A stretch of 64,000 nt of DNA from a virus, in the IMG/VR virus record IMGVR_UViG_3300025140_000080, positions 7,378-71,377 of that record; one strand, 5' to 3'. Every line of letters starts with the position of its first letter. Within the stretch, counting starts at the first letter, position 1. This document shows, piece by piece, positions 4,394-49,296 of the stretch. The translations under genes were made by a program, and so were the position numbers. The notes beneath the pieces were generated by a model, which saw only the letters and a program-made list of their open reading frames with translations, had not been told where the DNA came from and did not search any database.

Positions 4394-5764
4394 ATGGAAA
4401 AAAAGCTAAAAATACTGTTTTATAATACCGATGTCGCAGGCATTAATTATTATAGAACCCTGACCCCAGCAATGGAGGTTGATAGAAATCATAGTGATGA
4501 GTTTATAGTAGAAATTAATCCTAATATTAATTTTGAAGAACCAAACATTATAGATTATCTTACGTCGTTTGATATAATTCATTATCATAAAGAATTATAT
4601 AACCCAAGAAAATACCCAAGTTTCCGTAAGGCTTTAAAAGAAGCTGGTACTGTACTTATATTAGACGTTGATGACTTCTGGCAATTACCCGAATCACATC
4701 CTTTGCATGACTTTTATATACATAACAGACTTCAACAGTATATCGAACTTGCTGTAAAGAATGCTGATTATGTCACAACGACAACTGAATTATTCGCTGT
4801 CGAATTGCGAAAATTAAGTGGAAAGGATAATGTATTTGTGATTCCTAATTCAGTTGACCCAACATCTATGGATCAATTTGTTAATAACAGGACACCCGAC
4901 CCTGATGGTAAAATCAGAATAACTTATATGGGTGGCTCTTCACATCATGGCGATTTAACTCAATTAAATGGCGTGGTAAACATTTTAAATGCTGATTCCT
5001 TGACAAAGGATAAGTTTAAGATCATTTTGGCTGGCTGGGACATTAATGGCAATCAAACCGATATTAAATTCAATCAGGAATTCGGTAAAGAACTTCAAGA
5101 ACGTAAATTATATAATAATAAGATTATTAAGCTTATTAATGCTAATAAGGGTGATATTTCTGATATTAATGAGTTACCACAAGAATTAAGGGATAAGTAT
5201 CCTGAAAATGTTTTTGTGAAAACAGAAAGACCTATCACACCTCAAGAATCATCGTATTATCTTTATGAGGAAATATTGACAGATAATAATAGAATTATTA
5301 AGGATAAGGAATATCTATCATTTTTGAAAAAATATGATAGGAATCACACCTATCCTAATGAGGGTAATTATGCAAGAAGATGGACTCAAAAGGTTAATGT
5401 TTATGCAAATGTGTTAAATGAGACAGATATTGTTATAGCACCATTAGCCGATAACCTGTTTAACAGAATGAAATCGAATCTTAAACAGGTTGAGTGTTGG
5501 ACAAGGGGTTTACCAATTGTATGTAGTGATATTCCAACATATAATGTTGATGGCAGACATATGGAGAATTGTATTTTGATTCCATCGCAAAAGAACTCAA
5601 ATAAATTTTGGGCTAAGTATTTAAAGAGACTTATTCTCGATAAAGACCTTAGAGAGAAGTTAGGAACTCAACTGCATAACGACTTTAAAACTGCTTTCAA
5701 TTTGATTGACGTTACAAATAAACGAGTCGAGATTTATAAAAAAATCGCAACAAAAAATGATTAA
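4394..5764 (+). CDS. GT-B fold (GT4-like) glycosyltransferase with internal insertion
   Basis: YYRTLTPA, LDVDDFW, VIPNSVD, ITYMGGSSH, IAPLADNLFNRMKSNLK..E..PIVCSD. Confidence 0.8.
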   Translation: MEKKLKILFYNTDVAGINYYRTLTPAMEVDRNHSDEFIVEINPNINFEEPNIIDYLTSFDIIHYHKELYNPRKYPSFRKALKEAGTVLILDVDDFWQLPESHPLHDFYIHNRLQQYIELAVKNADYVTTTTELFAVELRKLSGKDNVFVIPNSVDPTSMDQFVNNRTPDPDGKIRITYMGGSSHHGDLTQLNGVVNILNADSLTKDKFKIILAGWDINGNQTDIKFNQEFGKELQERKLYNNKIIKLINANKGDISDINELPQELRDKYPENVFVKTERPITPQESSYYLYEEILTDNNRIIKDKEYLSFLKKYDRNHTYPNEGNYARRWTQKVNVYANVLNETDIVIAPLADNLFNRMKSNLKQVECWTRGLPIVCSDIPTYNVDGRHMENCILIPSQKNSNKFWAKYLKRLILDKDLREKLGTQLHNDFKTAFNLIDVTNKRVEIYKKIATKND

Positions 5765-6644
5765 TTGGATTAGAAATATATTTTACAGTATAGCAATTAG
5801 AATCGGCATGGCATTAAGCTATGCCGATGAGCTAATTTTTAAACCAATCGATCACGCTGTATCTGAGGGTTATAAAAAGATACAAAGACATCGTCATAGA
5901 AATAACACACTTGAATCGTTCTATAATGGTACTGAGGACGAGAAATACACTAAAGAGTACTACGAGATTCTAAAGAAAAGCGATGAATTTAGAAAGAAAT
6001 CCACACCTTTTCAGGTTGCAGCGGCAACTGACCGTCATGGTATGAATTTCGGTAAAAAGGATAAATGGGGTCGTAGATATGAACATTTTGGTTTTTTCGA
6101 TGAAAAAAACAAGAATTCAGGCAAAACCCTTGAAGAGGTTATAAACGGCGAGTATAATGATAGACGAACAGATGACGATGAATATCAGATTGAGTATATT
6201 TATAATAATACTCCGTTTGAAATCGGATTCTCAAAATCTGTGGATATTATGACAGAAGTTGAAGCTGATAAATTCATCCTAAATGACGCCCCAACATTAT
6301 CCAAACAACTTGAATTCCCTATAAAATGTCTCAGGGAAACCGAAACATTGAATAAGATTGAACAGCTGACAGAGATTATGCATGTGAAAACAATTGGGAG
6401 CGAATTGCTTAGGCTTGAATTTTTCATACCAGCTAAATACGGCTCGATTAAACTTGCTGATGACTCTAAAATAGTTAAAGACCTTATAAATATTGATCAA
6501 GTGTTTGTAAAGGATACTTATGGTAAACTTATAGGCTATAAAATCCATAGCTTTGTAAAGAGAATCACAACTAAAGATAAGAATGACGATAACATTTATG
6601 ATGTGTTTAAGTTCATGGTAAAAGAAATAAAAGAGGTAAGATAA
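5757..6644 (+). CDS. hypothetical protein (start revised to ATG 5757)
   Basis: Long ORF; ATG 5757 gives a short overlap with the upstream stop. Confidence 0.65.
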   Translation: MINWIRNIFYSIAIRIGMALSYADELIFKPIDHAVSEGYKKIQRHRHRNNTLESFYNGTEDEKYTKEYYEILKKSDEFRKKSTPFQVAAATDRHGMNFGKKDKWGRRYEHFGFFDEKNKNSGKTLEEVINGEYNDRRTDDDEYQIEYIYNNTPFEIGFSKSVDIMTEVEADKFILNDAPTLSKQLEFPIKCLRETETLNKIEQLTEIMHVKTIGSELLRLEFFIPAKYGSIKLADDSKIVKDLINIDQVFVKDTYGKLIGYKIHSFVKRITTKDKNDDNIYDVFKFMVKEIKEVR

Positions 6645-46526: not shown

Positions 46527-47084
46527 CTACTCATTTTTAGAGTCTTTAACGTCAGGGTATTCAATGTTAAAATGATCGCACATTGTATTTAAAATTTTTC
46601 TTATATTTTGTATGTCGTCCCTGTACAATCTACGGTCTTTTTTTAAATATTGCACAGTGCTCAACGTATCACTTTTCTTAAAATACTCATTAGATGGCGT
46701 TATCGTTTTTTCAACGATGCTAAATTTCTCTCTGTCATAAACTTTACCATTTGACGATATGTGTAAGGATGGCGAAGACTCTTTATATATTGGGAGATTT
46801 CTCATTGATTTTAATTCACGTTTATCATCATTTGGCAAAATTAGTTTGTAAAGCACTGGTTTTTTATCGATACCCTCAAACTCTTGAGCGATTGGTAATA
46901 CATTATCCTTATTGATTGTCACACTCTGACAGCCAATATTAACGAGAAATGTTTTACCTTTTAATTCAATTATAACGTTCTCGTATTGAACCTTATAATT
47001 AGGCTGAATAACGTATTCATTTTCGTTTTCTTTGTTTAACGACGTTCTAAAGTCGATGATCTTAATTTCAGTATTTTTTAACAT
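46527..47084 (-). CDS. hypothetical protein
   Basis: Directly behind early motif 47111-47140. Confidence 0.65.
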   Translation of the reverse strand: MLKNTEIKIIDFRTSLNKENENEYVIQPNYKVQYENVIIELKGKTFLVNIGCQSVTINKDNVLPIAQEFEGIDKKPVLYKLILPNDDKRELKSMRNLPIYKESSPSLHISSNGKVYDREKFSIVEKTITPSNEYFKKSDTLSTVQYLKKDRRLYRDDIQNIRKILNTMCDHFNIEYPDVKDSKNE

Positions 47085-47110
47085 TTCAATAAATTTAAAT
47101 TGTTTCTATA

Positions 47111-47140
47111 TTATACGTAACTCGATAAAAAAGGTTACAA
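47111..47140 (-). promoter_or_regulatory. early-type motif
   Basis: Exact match. Confidence 0.75.
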
Positions 47141-47175
47141 AAAAGGTCAACATATTTTGAGTATGTTGACCTTTT
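47139..47175 (-). terminator. terminator closing the RNA array
   Basis: AAAAGGTCAACATA/TATGTTGACCTTTT with U tract on - strand. Confidence 0.85.
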
Positions 47176-47184
47176 ATATTCAAA

Positions 47185-47268
47185 AAAAACAAAGAACAGT
47201 TAAGACAGAGTTTTTTGTATAAAAATTTCGATTTTTTTGATGAAACTGTCTCGAACACTATTGTTTTT
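47185..47268 (-). ncRNA. Y-RNA-like hairpin unit 5
   Basis: Outer stem AAAAACAA/UUGUUUUU, bulged U, AG/CU pairs, UGUUC loop, inner stem AGACAG/CUGUCU. Confidence 0.65.
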
Positions 47269-47270
47269 CG

Positions 47271-47394
47271 TAGGGCATGATGGACTCGAACCACCGACCT
47301 CGTCATTAAGAATGAAGTAACTTTTACGAACGCCACAATAAAGGGAAAAGGTGTAAAAGAGAATTTCGCGCTCTACCAACTGAGCTAACGCCCT
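47271..47394 (-). tRNA. tRNA-Lys(CUU) interrupted by a 51-nt Y-like insertion at position 28/29 (insert 47316-47366); no encoded CCA
   Basis: Acceptor AGGGCGU/AUGCCCU; D arm GCUC-AGUUGGUA-GAGC; T arm GGUGG-UUCGAGU-CCAUC; deleting the insert gives CGUCA-UUCUUAA-UGACG and a 73-nt cloverleaf. Confidence 0.85.
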
Positions 47395-47401
47395 ATAATA
47401 T

Positions 47402-47517
47402 AGATGAATAAGGAAAATGAGAGACAGAGTTTTGTATTTACTTAATTATTGAGATTGAGTTGATCTTAATTATTGAGATTGAGTTGATGAAACTGTTTCT
47501 AACGCCATTATTCATTT
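47402..47517 (-). ncRNA. Y-RNA-like hairpin unit 4 (loop expanded by 24-nt duplication)
   Basis: Outer AUGAAUAA/UUAUUCAU, bulged U, GG/CC, inner AGAAACAG/CUGUCUCU. Confidence 0.6.
47441..47488. repeat. perfect 24-nt tandem duplication CTTAATTATTGAGATTGAGTTGAT x2
   Basis: Direct inspection. Confidence 0.95.
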
Positions 47518-47518
47518 G

Positions 47519-47584
47519 TCGGTGTGCGAGGGGACGATCCTCATATAATACCGTATACTGCATTACAAGCCAAGACACACTCCG
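47519..47584 (-). ncRNA. degenerate D-arm-less tRNA-like element
   Basis: Acceptor CGGAGUG/CACACCG (6/7), T-like arm UGAGG-AUCGUCC-CCUCG, central hairpin UAAUGC/GUAUUA. Confidence 0.4.
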
Positions 47585-47591
47585 ATATAAA

Positions 47592-47661
47592 TAGATAAGG
47601 AAAAAGATAATACGGTGAATATTTCGTAAAAGGAAGTAACCGTATCGAACGCCATTATCTA
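47592..47661 (-). ncRNA. Y-RNA-like hairpin unit 2
   Basis: Outer UAGAUAA/UUAUCUA, bulged U, GG/CC, CGUUC loop, inner AUACGGU/ACCGUAU, UACUUC...GAAAU. Confidence 0.7.
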
Positions 47662-47670
47662 AATTTTTGT

Positions 47671-47740
47671 AAGCAAAGAACTGATGGTAGGGTGTGATTT
47701 CATTTATGGAGGAAGTAACCCTTACCGAACGCTATTACTT
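47671..47740 (-). ncRNA. Y-RNA-like hairpin unit 1
   Basis: Outer AAGUAA/UUGCUU, bulged U, AG/CU, CGUUC loop, inner GGUA(A)GGGU/ACCCUACC, UACUUC...GAAAU. Confidence 0.7.
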
Positions 47741-47750
47741 AATATTTTTA

Positions 47751-47798
47751 CAAAGGTACTATTTAATATTTAATTTGCAAGTATAAATAGTACCTTTG
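47751..47798 (-). promoter_or_regulatory. Bacteroidota-type promoter for the RNA array inside a perfect 15-bp inverted repeat
   Basis: - strand TTG(47780-78)-N19-TACCTTTG(47758-51); IR CAAAGGTACTATTTA-N18-TAAATAGTACCTTTG. Confidence 0.7.
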
Positions 47799-47802
47799 TT
47801 GA

Positions 47803-49236
47803 TTAATTTTCACTCTGGTCGTCAAATTTATTTGTTAGACCTTCGTTTGCAGCGATATATGTTAGGAAGTTTTCAGACATACCTGTAATTTCGGCATCCC
47901 ATACATTCCTAAAGTTAACGCCTCTCTCATTTGACGATACGTCGCAAATATAGTTATATTTGCCGTAAGGTGCTGGAATTCTCGCATTCATAAGATCGCA
48001 ATCCTGTGAGTCAGAGAATATGATAATTCTGTCGAATGTATCAGATACGTTGGCTTTACACCATTCGATACACTGTCTGGTGAAAATACCACCACAGCCG
48101 ATTTCACTTCCAGCACTTTGAATTTGCTTGAACACATCGAATCCCTTTTTTGGATTTAGAATATGCTTATGAGCACCTTTATGCGAACCATCATTCCCAG
48201 CAGTTGCTACGATTTCATAGTTTTCACATTGATTAATCGCAAGCATAGCCATTGCACAAGCAGCATCCATTCTGGACATTCCCGACTTGTCAGATAATTT
48301 AGCACCCATTGAGCCTGAAATATCGACAATGAATAATGTCTTTCCAGATAATTTAGGAAGATTCTTATAAGACTCAACCATAGCATCCTCAATATCTCTC
48401 GAATACTCAGGTGCAAACCTTGAGGCTGTTAAGAAATTGAAAGGCAATAACATCGAACTATTTAGATTTTTCAATCCCTTTCTAATGCTATTCGAGTTAA
48501 CACCCGACTGAACCATATTACGTACATTGCGCAACATTGCCAAACCACCGATTTTCTTTTCATCGATCAATCTCTCCCATGTGGCTTTCTTATCTTTACC
48601 TGTCGATAAAGCAACTTCCCATGTATCAGGAGTTTTCAAAGTACGATCAGCAACTTTCTTGTAAAGTTCAATCTTTTCCTGTGAAGATGGTTTTGGGTGA
48701 GCTAAAAACATAGCATCCCTTAACTTGATCTCGGCATCCCTGTCATATTTAGCGAATTGGTATTCGTTAAAGTTATCGAATGCTTTCGCCAAACCTTTCT
48801 TAGCAGCAGCAGCCAAAGGCTTTAGCTTACCGCCATTCTGTTTCTTGTAGATAGCAAGAAAGTCTGTAATCATGTCTGCTCTTGTGATAATCTTTGGTAA
48901 GATATCGGCAACCAACGCAGAATATCCAACGTGTTTCAGCATTTCAACACAAATAAACAAAGGAGTATGACGCAATTTCTGCTCAAGTCTCGCCTCAACA
49001 GCAAGATCAGCAACATCTTGAGGATTACATTGCGGAATCAACTGGCTGATCTGTGTTGAAACATCTTCACCGTTAGCATACGCAATGTTTTCCCATAATA
49101 GGTTCGCTAAAACAACTCTACGTAATAGAGCTAATTCGTCTTGTTTAGCTGCTCTGGTTCCAAATCCACCAGCAAGTCTTTCATCTGATTTTAAATCAGA
49201 AACGCCACTTTTTAAAATAGGGTTCAATTTACTCAT
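47803..49236 (-). CDS. rsr: Ro60/TROVE-vWA RNA-binding protein
   Basis: EARLEQKLRHTP, RADMITDFL, YQFAKYDRD, LKTPDTWE, MLRNVRN, vWA IVDISGSM...FSD. Confidence 0.92.
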   Translation of the reverse strand: MSKLNPILKSGVSDLKSDERLAGGFGTRAAKQDELALLRRVVLANLLWENIAYANGEDVSTQISQLIPQCNPQDVADLAVEARLEQKLRHTPLFICVEMLKHVGYSALVADILPKIITRADMITDFLAIYKKQNGGKLKPLAAAAKKGLAKAFDNFNEYQFAKYDRDAEIKLRDAMFLAHPKPSSQEKIELYKKVADRTLKTPDTWEVALSTGKDKKATWERLIDEKKIGGLAMLRNVRNMVQSGVNSNSIRKGLKNLNSSMLLPFNFLTASRFAPEYSRDIEDAMVESYKNLPKLSGKTLFIVDISGSMGAKLSDKSGMSRMDAACAMAMLAINQCENYEIVATAGNDGSHKGAHKHILNPKKGFDVFKQIQSAGSEIGCGGIFTRQCIEWCKANVSDTFDRIIIFSDSQDCDLMNARIPAPYGKYNYICDVSSNERGVNFRNVWDAEITGMSENFLTYIAANEGLTNKFDDQSEN

Positions 49237-49266: not shown

Positions 49267-49296
49267 TTATACGTAAGAACTTTTCAAATGTTACAA
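49267..49296 (-). promoter_or_regulatory. early-type motif upstream of Ro60
   Basis: Exact match. Confidence 0.75.

What the first reader, a model, noticed from the sequence alone, without database searches (positions are those of the whole stretch)
47139..47798. Separately promoted array of five covarying Y-RNA-like hairpins punctuated by tRNA-like units, directly downstream of Ro60
Seen: order on the - strand is promoter, Y1 (47740-671), Y2 (47661-592), tRNA-like unit (47584-519), Y4 (47517-402), tRNA-Lys/Y3 chimera, Y5 (47268-185), terminator. The four free units share one architecture, and Y3 is a permuted version: outer stem, single bulged U, covarying pairs (AG/CU in Y1 and Y5; GG/CC in Y2, Y3, Y4), a YGUU(C) internal loop, and an inner stem whose sequence differs in every unit but stays paired. 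There are two loop subtypes (UACUUC..GAAAU and UUCAUC..AUACAAAA). Y4 and Y5 begin 1-2 nt after the discriminator of the preceding tRNA-like unit. Established: Ro60 binds a bulged helix in Y RNAs, which are usually encoded next to rsr, typically as one or two genes. Inference: a polycistronic Y-RNA cassette processed by tRNA punctuation (RNase P/Z), with a bulged-U/GUUC signature unlike the GGUCCGA bulged-C consensus, giving one Ro60 several interchangeable adaptor or decoy RNAs.
Basis: partly seen in the sequence, partly recalled or inferred. Interest (0 to 1): 0.85.

Follow-up and report, generated by a model that had tools for sequence, protein, structure and literature searches.

The report
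Phage Ro60 with five Y RNAs
Just after its Ro60 gene, this crAss-like phage encodes four small hairpin RNAs and one tRNA-shaped RNA that all carry the docking stem of bacterial Y RNAs; this is a known kind of protein-RNA system, found here in a very abundant phage group with an undescribed tRNA-shaped member.

Summary
A phage Ro60 gene (TROVE plus vWA, 49236-47803, minus strand) is followed on the same strand by:
- four free hairpin RNAs (47740-47671, 47660-47593, 47513-47406, 47266-47187);
- a minihelix that looks partly like a tRNA (47585-47518);
- a tRNA-shaped RNA (47394-47271) whose anticodon arm carries the same "handle", closed by a loop;
- a strong terminator.

A covariance model of the handle finds only these four units in the 95.8-kb genome. 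It finds 182 more beside Ro60 genes in 68 of 73 other viral contigs, all on the Ro60 strand, up to 8 per locus. In 150 aligned units, 95% of cells pair and all 15 pairs show compensatory changes. The handle is a variant of the bacterial Y-RNA motif GNCGAA, and it also closes weak Rfam YrlA matches.

These are therefore Y RNAs, a known kind. What is new is the crAss-like setting, the array, and the tRNA-order member. Cultured crAss001 has the same RNAs in an unannotated gap.

"Separately promoted" and "tRNA punctuation" are not established. Expression is untested for this phage. The scan noted the same array earlier on near-identical DNA.

The parts
49267..49296 (-). Phage-type promoter motif (TTGTAAC ... 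TTACGTATAA) upstream of the Ro60 start codon
   Evidence: One of about 25 copies of the motif, all on the minus strand and each shortly before an ATG (repeats first seen).
47803..49236 (-). Ro60 (TROVE + vWA) gene, 477 aa
   Evidence: Pfam TROVE 1.6e-16 and vWA_Ro60. PHROG 850 RNA-binding protein, 5.7e-32. PDB 9KOP/9L5Y phage phiLo Ro60, 5e-18. 60-61% identical to crAss001 Gp96.
47750..47799 (-). Perfect 16-bp hairpin with an 18-nt loop right after the Ro60 stop. It has no U tract. Its 3' arm and loop hold a Bacteroidota-type -33/-7 match (TTG-N19-TAccTTTG, 47780-47751).
   Evidence: z = -6.6. Inverted repeat I2, unlike the block's A-tract/U-tract terminators. The stem is identical in L010. 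The pattern occurs 6 times in the window against 2.05 expected.
47671..47740 (-). Y1: free Y-RNA unit (AG:CU handle, GUUACUUC loop start)
   Evidence: R1 54.4 bits, E 3e-11. Two compensatory inner-stem changes relative to L010.
47593..47660 (-). Y2: free Y-RNA unit (GG:CC handle, GUUACUUC)
   Evidence: R1 62.1 bits. The minimum-energy fold reproduces the handle.
47518..47585 (-). tRNA-like minihelix: an 8-bp acceptor-like stem with one mismatch, a 4-bp T-arm-like hairpin with a 7-nt loop, and a central hairpin
   Evidence: Consensus fold with L010 has 17 pairs, 2 of them compensatory. The tRNA model and ARAGORN do not detect it. z = -0.5.
47406..47513 (-). Y4: free Y-RNA unit (GG:CC handle, GUUUCAUC). 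Its loop holds a 2 x 24-nt tandem copy (47441-47488).
   Evidence: R1 59.5 bits. Tandem repeat with 100% match. The L010 ortholog lacks the duplication.
47271..47394 (-). Y3: tRNA-shaped Y RNA. It has acceptor, D and T arms in tRNA order. The handle (47359-47314) is closed by a loop and branches from the 5' side of an anticodon-arm look-alike (CGUCA / UUCUUAA / UGACG).
   Evidence: Rfam tRNA 42.6 bits against a gathering score of 29, with a 64-nt insert. ARAGORN finds nothing as encoded and calls Lys(CUU) after in-silico removal of 47366-47316. The same layout occurs in 15 RNAs in 11 other Ro60 loci, all on the Ro60 strand (first L018 copy) and in crAss001. Three T-stem and acceptor changes relative to L010 keep pairing.
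47187..47266 (-). Y5: free Y-RNA unit (AG:CU handle, GUUUCAUC)
   Evidence: R1 73.1 bits, E 5e-16.
47139..47175 (-). Intrinsic terminator: a 14-bp hairpin followed by a U run that ends the array
   Evidence: z = -6.9. Inverted repeat I7. Followed at once by the next phage promoter motif.
47111..47140 (-). Next phage-type promoter motif, serving ORF 47084-46527. It marks the end of the Ro60/array unit.

Best explanation
The interval encodes the RNA partners (Y RNAs) of the phage's own Ro60. The most likely layout is one transcription unit: phage-type promoter at 49296-49267, Ro60, stem-loop, Y1, Y2, tRNA-like minihelix, Y4, tRNA-shaped Y3, Y5, terminator at 47175-47139.

Each RNA has two parts. 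The first is a conserved 'handle': an outer stem, an invariant bulged U, an R-G:C-Y pair step, a Y-G/U-U internal loop, a 7-bp inner stem closed by G:C, then G-U-U-A/U-C-U/A-U-C. This handle docks on the Ro60 ring. The second is a variable module: A/U-rich loops in Y1, Y2, Y4 and Y5, and a whole tRNA body in Y3. The module would recruit or occlude other factors, as bacterial Y RNAs tether Ro60 to PNPase.

The precursor is cut into units. RNase P and RNase Z probably act at the two tRNA-like elements, which would free the 3' ends of Y2 and Y4 and the 5' ends of Y4 and Y5. Other nucleases, followed by trimming back to the protein-protected handle, would act at the Y1/Y2 junction.

By analogy with crAss001, where the TROVE gene is an early gene, the complex acts early in infection on host or phage RNA.

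Shown here: the anatomy, the covariation, and the exclusive same-strand linkage to Ro60 genes. Inferred: Ro60 binding, co-transcription, the processing route and the effector.
For: **Ro60 identity.**

**Handle structure.**
- 95% of cells paired, with compensatory changes at all 15 pairs in 150 units. Covariation score 0.975 against 0.10-0.24 in the controls. The hand-picked seed gives the same picture.
- Orthologous units in L010 keep pairing through two-sided changes.

**Linkage to Ro60.**
- R1 hits only the four units in the own genome.
- 182 hits lie beside Ro60 in 68 of 73 further viral loci. All are on the Ro60 strand and none on the opposite strand of 490 kb.
- From the RNA side, 45 of 79 IMG/VR loci found by a handle pattern alone hold Ro60 on the same strand, at a median distance of 249 nt.

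**Continuity with known Y RNAs.**
- The invariant core U-R-G-Y-G-W-A-G equals the published GNCGAA(N)G motif (PMC4201824).
- R1 also closes RNAs that Rfam scores as weak YrlA: L014 at 45 bits and L017 at 35 bits.
- Phage Ro60 binding phage-encoded Y-like RNAs and host PNPase is shown for Thermus phage phiLo (PMC12135203).

**One transcription unit.**
- Phage promoter motifs lie before Ro60 and after the terminator, with none between.
- The hairpin after Ro60 is unlike this block's terminators.
- In RNA-seq libraries holding a crAss001-like phage, single assembled contigs run from Ro60 into the array.
- The crAss001 TROVE gene is an early gene (PMC8375218).
Against: - There is no RNA evidence for this phage. 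Its DNA is held only in glacier metagenome DNA runs.
- The RNA-library evidence concerns a relative, consists of contigs only, and does not exclude DNA carry-over.
- No Rfam Y_RNA or YrlA match appears in the window, even at E <= 10.
- Single-unit folding energies are no better than shuffles.
- The pair counts were made on an alignment fitted to the structure. The outer stem of the seed set was a selection criterion.
- A host-type -33/-7 match in front of Y1 could give the array its own start.
- Two Ro60 relatives at 61-62% identity (L012, L015) have no unit within 3 kb.
- 34 of 79 pattern-found loci show no Ro60 by tblastn, some of them for lack of flanking DNA.
Confidence: 0.8

Rival explanations
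1. One reading: the array is its own transcription unit, started by host RNA polymerase at a promoter inside the post-Ro60 hairpin, independent of the Ro60 mRNA. The RNAs are still Y RNAs.
For: TTG-N19-TAccTTTG at 47780-47751 fits the Bacteroides -33/-7 promoter consensus as I recall it. It occurs only 6 times in the window against 2.05 expected. It is kept in L010 although the loop between the boxes changed at several positions. It would start transcription a few bases before Y1.
Against: - There is no sigma-70 match.
- There is no copy of the phage's own promoter motif, which precedes the neighbouring genes.
- In L011 the first unit starts about 12 nt after the Ro60 stop, leaving no room for a promoter.
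- RNA-library contigs of a crAss001-like phage join Ro60 to the array.
- The spacing N19 was chosen after seeing this site.
Confidence: 0.3
2. The hairpins are structured repeats that act in cis on the Ro60 message, or as decoys for host factors. Examples would be stabilisers, processing sites, attenuators or defence decoys. They would not bind Ro60.
For: Binding has not been tested. The units are AT-rich, and their individual folds are no more stable than shuffles. They lie in the 3' untranslated region of Ro60.
Against: - In most distant relatives the units lie upstream of Ro60, not in its 3' UTR, so a 3'-UTR role does not generalise.
- The invariant single-stranded bases (bulged U, G-Y-G, UUACUUC, UUC) point to a sequence-specific partner.
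- The core equals the published Ro60-associated motif.
- The same handle closes YrlA-type tRNA mimics.
Confidence: 0.07
3. Y3 is a working tRNA-Lys(CUU) gene interrupted by a 51-nt intervening element that is removed or tolerated. The free hairpins are copies of that mobile or intron-like element.
For: Removing 47366-47316 in silico gives a 74-nt RNA that ARAGORN calls tRNA-Lys(CUU), with a perfect 5-bp anticodon stem, U33 and A37.
Against: - 138 of 280 alternative deletions also give some tRNA call, so the restoration is not unique.
- The anticodon-like triplet differs between orthologs: CUU here, CCU in L010, UUG in L011, UGU in L026/L030.
- The insert is a circular permutation of the free units, not an inserted copy.
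- No bacterial enzyme is known that removes such an insert from an anticodon stem (established knowledge).
- No CCA is encoded.
Confidence: 0.04

Closest known systems
YrlA (Y RNA-like A; Rfam RF02553; S. Typhimurium, M. smegmatis, mycobacteriophages; Chen et al. 2014 PMC4201824; structure 6CU1, bioRxiv 10.1101/312249)
   Same: - It is encoded beside Ro60 on the same strand.
- It has a Ro60-side stem with the G-N-C-G core, followed by a conserved YUAY box (here UUAC).
- Y3 also has tRNA-like D and T arms.
- The handle model built here also matches weak Rfam YrlA hits in relatives.
   Different: - No unit of this window reaches the YrlA model, even at E <= 10.
- Four of the five have no tRNA-like domain.
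- Y3 has the opposite topology. Its ends are in the acceptor stem in natural tRNA order (D, handle, anticodon-like arm, T) and its handle is closed by a loop. YrlA has its ends in the handle and its acceptor stem closed.
- Y3 keeps an anticodon-arm look-alike, whereas the solved YrlA lacks an anticodon loop.
Short bacterial Y RNAs without a tRNA domain (S. Typhimurium YrlB) and Thermus phage phiLo Yrl1/Yrl2 (PMC12135203)
   Same: These are small stem / internal loop / stem RNAs with the CGAA-type motif, encoded next to Ro60. For phiLo, they are bound by a phage Ro60 and by host PNPase.
   Different: - Here there are four such units plus a tRNA-shaped one, downstream of Ro60.
- The motif reads GGCGUU / AGYGUU instead of CGAA.
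- An additional invariant box G-U-U-A/U-C-U/A-U-C follows the inner stem.
- Sequence homology to YrlB or Yrl1/2 was not tested here.
D. radiodurans Yrn1
   Same: It is a Y RNA whose tRNA-like elements are in natural order (D before T), as noted by Chen et al..
   Different: In Yrn1 the Ro60-binding helix is formed by the RNA ends, at the acceptor side. In Y3 it is a capped branch of the anticodon arm, and the ends form a true 7-bp acceptor stem.
Metazoan Y RNAs (Rfam RF00019)
   Same: A terminal stem with a single bulged pyrimidine and a conserved 5'-strand motif bound by Ro60, plus a variable loop as the effector module.
   Different: The bulge is U rather than C. The motif is U-R-G-Y-G rather than GGUCCGA. 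There is no Rfam match. The RNAs are encoded as a tandem array in a phage.
Ro60-like gp130 of Felix O1-type phage Bas63 (bioRxiv 10.1101/2024.10.10.617714)
   Same: A phage Ro60-type protein encoded next to tRNA-like genes. It is the only phage case I found with a phenotype: it counters the ppl defence system.
   Different: The protein is related only by structure. No RNA partners have been shown. Relevance to crAss-like phages is untested.

Membership tests
Y RNA (Ro60-associated non-coding RNA, functional class) | Physically bound by Ro60 | not testable with these tools
   This needs pull-down or gel shift. The tools offer no RNA-protein prediction.
Y RNA (Ro60-associated non-coding RNA, functional class) | Encoded next to the Ro60 gene, on the same strand | tested here: met
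   - The units start 63 nt after the Ro60 stop, on the same strand.
- Across the family, all 182 hits are on the Ro60 strand.
- 45 of 79 pattern-found loci hold Ro60, all 45 on the same strand at a median distance of 249 nt.
Y RNA (Ro60-associated non-coding RNA, functional class) | Terminal stem carrying the conserved Ro60-side motif (bacterial form GNCGAA(N)G, Chen et al. 2014) | tested here: met
   - The family consensus from 150 units is U-R-G-Y-G-W-A-G.
- This window reads GGCGUUCG, AGCGUUCG, GGCGUUAG and AGUGUUCG. The G-N-C/U-G core and the closing G are kept, but the two A positions read UU.
- The feature is met for the core and departs at 2 of 7 positions.
Y RNA (Ro60-associated non-coding RNA, functional class) | Accumulates as a discrete small RNA | not testable with these tools
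   No RNA run holds this phage. For a relative only assembled contigs are available, and these cannot show RNA ends.
YrlA (Rfam RF02553) | Reaches the Rfam model's gathering score (69 bits) | tested here: not met
   No YrlA match in 46900-48000 at E <= 10. Relatives L014 and L017 reach only 45 and 35 bits.
YrlA (Rfam RF02553) | Order: handle 5' strand, T arm, closed acceptor stem-loop, D arm, handle 3' strand (a circularly permuted tRNA) | tested here: not met
   Y3 runs acceptor 5' strand, D arm, handle (capped), anticodon-like arm, T arm, acceptor 3' strand. The four free units have no T or D arm.
YrlA (Rfam RF02553) | tRNA-like D and T arms with the conserved tRNA nucleotides | tested here: met
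   Met for Y3 only: tRNA model 42.6 bits over the D arm, T arm and acceptor.
tRNA (Rfam RF00005) | Matches the tRNA covariance model above the gathering score | tested here: met
   Y3 scores 42.6 bits against 29, but with 64 nt skipped at the anticodon arm.
tRNA (Rfam RF00005) | Continuous anticodon arm, so that a tRNA finder calls a gene with an anticodon | tested here: not met
   ARAGORN finds nothing in the window. It makes a call only after in-silico removal of 51 nt, and that call is not unique.
tRNA (Rfam RF00005) | Anticodon conserved among orthologs, as expected of a decoding tRNA | tested here: not met
   CUU here, CCU in L010 (Ro60 86% identical), and other triplets in further relatives.

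The most novel reading that the evidence does not exclude
The tRNA-shaped member (Y3 and its 15 relatives, plus two in crAss001) is a third, undescribed Y-RNA topology. It is a complete tRNA in natural order, with a real acceptor stem and an anticodon-arm look-alike, and the Ro60 handle is grafted onto the 5' side of the anticodon stem.

If it is processed by RNase P and RNase Z and receives CCA like a tRNA, Ro60 would be tethered to a molecule that tRNA-binding factors accept. Such factors include modification enzymes, EF-Tu, the ribosome and anticodon nucleases.

It would also be the missing non-permuted form linking tRNAs to YrlA. A tandem pair of such RNAs, cut in the acceptor loops, gives exactly the YrlA order. 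That would revise the published 'dimeric tRNA' origin model. Both topologies occur side by side in single arrays (L013, L025, L026).
Probability: 0.2. Interest if true: 0.8.

Novelty: new variant of a known kind. Interest (0 to 1): 0.58.

Why it matters
Ro60 with Y RNAs is a conserved but poorly understood RNA surveillance particle, and the function of phage copies is essentially unknown.

This finding places a five-member Y-RNA set in crAss-like phages, among the most abundant phages of the human gut. The same unannotated RNAs lie in the 900-nt gap after the early TROVE gene of the cultured model phage crAss001. Binding, processing and knockout experiments are therefore directly feasible.

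At family level, phage Ro60 genes usually come with 2-8 handle-bearing RNAs, most of them invisible to the Rfam YrlA model. The handle model also defines a precise set of invariant bases to mutate.

The tRNA-order member bears on how Y RNAs arose from tRNAs. I found no mention of Y RNAs in the crAss literature held here.

Tried and rejected
- **Rfam.** At gathering score and at E <= 10 there is no Y_RNA or YrlA match, only tRNA for Y3. The other low-scoring hits (rli40, PK-HAV, several miRNA models) sit on the terminator or the post-Ro60 hairpin and are far below their cut-offs.
- **BLASTN.** Searching the array against 50,697 phage records found no match.
- **Promoter and terminator scan.**
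  - No sigma-70 promoter lies before Y1.
  - The scan missed the obvious terminator, probably because the A/U pairs extend the stem into the U run. The hairpin was confirmed by folding and by the repeat finder.
- **Thermodynamic support for single units.** It is weak (z -0.5 to -1.8) and was not used as evidence.
- **RNA runs for this phage.** There are none; only glacier metagenome DNA holds it.
- **RNA libraries of a crAss001-like relative.**
  - Contigs bridge Ro60 and the array.
  - Contigs show neither ends nor strand, and DNA carry-over is not excluded. I treat this as a hint only.
- **'Exactly 51 nt restores tRNA-Lys'.** This is true for ARAGORN but not unique. It was rejected as evidence for a working tRNA gene.
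- **tRNA punctuation as a general processing rule.** Rejected at family level.
- **MAFFT alignment of the six tRNA-shaped RNAs.** It misaligned the capped handle, so I built no second covariance model. Instead I used a regular-expression scan with the opposite strand as control. One of its hits (L063) is a false join of two adjacent units.
- **CheckV completeness.** The 29% estimate had first suggested a jumbo phage. This was rejected after the crAss001 match: crAss-like genomes are 96-103 kb.
- **Papers not held.** Two reviews (PMC10870794, PMC6047535) are not in the library. My statement that arrays and the tRNA-order form are undescribed therefore rests on the papers I could read.
Full report
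**What is there.** All coordinates below are on the minus strand.
- ORF 49236-47803 encodes a 477-aa Ro60. It matches Pfam TROVE at 1.6e-16 plus the Ro60 vWA domain and PHROG 850 'RNA-binding protein'. It matches the solved Ro60 of Thermus phage phiLo at 5e-18.
- A perfect 16-bp hairpin follows the stop codon (47799-47750).
- Six RNA-like units follow, with no credible ORF: Y1 47740-47671, Y2 47660-47593, a minihelix 47585-47518, Y4 47513-47406, a tRNA-shaped unit 47394-47271, and Y5 47266-47187.
- The array ends at a strong hairpin plus U run (47175-47139; z = -6.9).
- Rfam at gathering score sees only the tRNA-shaped unit (tRNA, 42.6 bits, with 64 nt skipped at the anticodon arm). ARAGORN sees nothing. 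No Y_RNA or YrlA match appears even at E <= 10.

**Source.** The window is part of a 95.8-kb IMG/VR virus record. Its Ro60 is 60-61% identical to the 'TROVE domain protein' Gp96 of Bacteroides phage crAss001 and its relatives, so this is a crAss-like phage. Its DNA is held in glacier metagenome runs, with no RNA runs.

**Is the shared architecture real?**
- The free units align well at both ends. They share a 6-bp outer stem, one bulged U, two pairs that are AG:CU or GG:CC, a Y-G internal loop, a 7-bp inner stem of different sequence in every unit, then GUUACUUC or GUUUCAUC. On the 3' side they share U-U-C-Y.
- On 19 units from eight phages, 95.4% of cells pair, against 64% after shuffling and 47-52% with slid partners. 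Thirteen of 15 pairs change on both sides. The outer stem had been a selection criterion. The inner stem had not, and it is 90% paired, with 6 of 7 pairs changing on both sides.
- The ortholog array in L010 (Ro60 86% identical) keeps every helix. It shows two-sided changes in the Y1 inner stem, in the T-arm-like hairpin of the minihelix, and in the T stem of the tRNA-shaped unit.
- Folding energies of single units are not better than shuffles (z -0.5 to -1.8), so the support is comparative.

**Is it tied to Ro60?**
- A covariance model of the handle (R1) finds exactly the four free units in the window and in the whole 95.8-kb genome.
- In 73 further viral loci fetched through Ro60 relatives (38-64% identity) it finds 182 units at E <= 0.01. 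All are on the Ro60 strand and none on the other strand of the same 490 kb. They lie in 68 of 73 loci and mostly abut the gene. Two or three per locus is usual, and the maximum is eight.
- On 150 of them, 95.1% of cells pair and all 15 pairs change on both sides. The covariation score is 0.975 against 0.10-0.24 in the controls. That alignment is fitted to the model, which favours the structure.
- I also tested the link from the RNA side. A handle-only pattern scan of IMG/VR gave 93 stretches, of which I read 79. Of these, 45 hold a Ro60 homolog, always on the same strand, at a median distance of 249 nt. Several of the other 34 lack flanking DNA. The rest are unexplained.

**What kind of RNA is it?**
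- The invariant bases from 150 units are as follows. The bulged U is present in 150/150 and is followed by R-G-Y-G-W-A-G. Next comes the inner stem closed by G:C, then U-U-A-C-U-U-C (U, C, U and C invariant). On the 3' side the invariant bases are G-U-U-C-Y.
- The 5' core is the GNCGAA(N)G motif that Chen et al. reported near the 5' end of bacterial and mycobacteriophage YrlA and of YrlB, and proposed as the Ro60 contact (PMC4201824). UUAC corresponds to their conserved YUAY.
- R1 also closes longer RNAs that Rfam scores as weak YrlA: L014 2855-2978 at 45 bits and L017 2318-2440 at 35 bits. Of 28 units longer than 100 nt, 25 contain a T arm.
- The family is therefore continuous with known Y RNAs.
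Within the bacterial and phage motif, this phage departs at two positions (UU for WA), and 'GUUC' is not conserved in relatives.

**The tRNA-shaped unit.**
- Y3 has a 7-bp acceptor stem, D arm and T arm in natural order.
- Between D arm and T arm lie, in order: the 3' strand of an inner stem, UUCC, a 9-nt cap, GGCG, the 5' strand of the inner stem, UUACUUC, then a hairpin shaped like an anticodon arm.
- It is thus the free-unit handle circularly permuted, with the tRNA body taking the place of the variable loop.
- A pattern scan found this layout in L010, L011, L013, L018, L020 (two), L021, L024 (two), L025, L026, L030 and L086. It gave 14 true hits, including this window's, all on the Ro60 strand, and none on the other strand. 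All 14 have a T arm downstream, which was not part of the pattern. L018 carries a second copy that the strict pattern missed.
- crAss001 has two more.
- YrlA is described as resembling a circularly permuted tRNA, with a closed acceptor stem and no anticodon loop (bioRxiv 10.1101/312249). Y3 is the non-permuted counterpart. I did not find it described.
- Removing 47366-47316 in silico makes ARAGORN call tRNA-Lys(CUU). But 138 of 280 other deletions also give a call, and the triplet differs among orthologs (CCU in L010, UUG in L011, UGU in L026/L030). A decoding tRNA is therefore unlikely.
- Among 82 tRNA-domain members of the family, 33 show a 7-nt loop with U33 and a purine at position 37, directly after UUACUU(C). 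An anticodon-arm look-alike is therefore common.

**Transcription and processing.**
- The phage has its own two-box promoter motif, TTGTAAC-N14-TTACGTATAA. About 25 copies occur, all on the minus strand, each shortly before a start codon. One precedes Ro60 (49296-49267). The next lies just after the array terminator (47140-47111). None lies before Y1.
- The post-Ro60 hairpin has a long loop and no U run. This block's terminators have A and U tracts and 6-10-nt loops.
- One unit, Ro60 plus array, is therefore the simplest reading. It fits RNA-library contigs of a crAss001-like phage that run from Ro60 into the array. That evidence is weak: it concerns a relative, consists of contigs only, and does not exclude DNA.
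- Against this, TTG-N19-TAccTTTG at 47780-47751 fits the Bacteroides -33/-7 consensus as I recall it. It is rare in the window (6 found, 2.05 expected). A second, host-type start cannot be excluded.
- Y4 and Y5 begin 2 nt after the discriminator of the preceding tRNA-like element, so cuts by RNase Z and RNase P are plausible there.
- Y1 and Y2 are separated by 10 nt without any tRNA. Across the family the median spacer is 14 nt, and only 5 of 146 units lie within 11 nt of a standard tRNA. Punctuation by tRNAs is at best part of the processing.

**Function.**
- By homology, the RNAs dock on Ro60 through the handle and present variable modules.
- In bacteria, Y RNAs tether Ro60 to PNPase. Phage phiLo Ro60 binds its two Y-like RNAs and forms complexes with host PNPase (PMC12135203).
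- In crAss001 the TROVE gene is an early gene (PMC8375218).
- A Ro60-like protein of phage Bas63 counters the ppl defence system (bioRxiv 10.1101/2024.10.10.617714).
- An early-acting RNA-decay or anti-defence particle with several interchangeable adaptors is the most likely role. It is inference only.

**Novelty.**
- The kind is known: Ro60 with Y RNAs, including in phages.
- These aspects are new relative to the papers I could read: the crAss-like setting, the finding that phage Ro60 genes usually carry 2-8 handle RNAs that the Rfam model misses, the extra invariant box, and the tRNA-order member.
- RefSeq annotates nothing in the 900-nt gap after crAss001 Gp96. That gap holds two R1 units, two tRNA-order units and a fifth handle unit.
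- Earlier notes of this scan reported the same array on near-identical DNA, and related RNA sets beside Ro60-like genes in other phages.

Noticed in passing
window, minus strand, e.g. 49296-49267, 47140-47111, 44622, 50655, 54529, 56108, 57505, 58751, 61304, 62489: A phage-specific two-box promoter-like motif, TTGTAAC(C)TTTT-N9-10-TTACGTATAA, followed by (A/T)AGAAA. About 25 copies occur in the 95.8-kb genome, all on the minus strand in the right-hand gene block, each 20-40 nt before a start codon. It may be the promoter of a phage-encoded or virion RNA polymerase.
   Followed up: partly
L095 (NC_049977.1, crAss001) 4920-5824: The cultured model phage crAss001 has an unannotated 900-nt gap after its TROVE gene Gp96. 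The gap holds two free handle units (5017-5098, 5111-5186), two tRNA-order units (about 5192-5338 and 5447-5578) and a fifth handle unit (about 5584-5735), followed by a terminator.
   Followed up: partly
window 47441-47488: The loop of Y4 contains a perfect 2 x 24-nt tandem duplication. The ortholog in L010 lacks it. The variable module therefore changes quickly while the handle is kept.
   Followed up: partly
L011 1593-2117 and L013 5522-5829: Rfam tmRNA matches above the gathering score (52.5 and 52.9 bits against 47) lie within 1.5 kb of the Ro60 gene in two relatives. No tmRNA match occurs in this window.
   Followed up: no
82 tRNA-domain Y-like RNAs in loci L010-L095: In 55 of 82, a hairpin with a 7-nt loop follows the UUACUU(C) box directly. 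In 33 it has U33 and a purine at position 37, like a real anticodon loop, with many different triplets (GUU, AUU, GCU, UGU, CUU, ACG and others). The 'V arm' of phage YrlA-type RNAs may therefore be an anticodon-arm look-alike.
   Followed up: partly
L012, L015, L028, L042: Four Ro60 loci of crAss-like relatives (59-63% identity) have no handle unit within the DNA held. L012 and L015 instead share a conserved sequence after Ro60 (ATAATGTTTGTTTTGTTTTACA).
   Followed up: no
34 of 79 loci L096-L174: These loci hold handle-pattern matches in IMG/VR but show no Ro60 by tblastn with my queries. Some lack flanking DNA. Others may sit beside more distant Ro60-like proteins or lie far from the gene.
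   Followed up: no
G000 (whole record): CheckV rates the 95.8-kb record as 29% complete. Its closest cultured relatives (crAss001 and the PhiCrAssBcn phages) have genomes of 98-103 kb, so the record is probably near complete.
   Followed up: no
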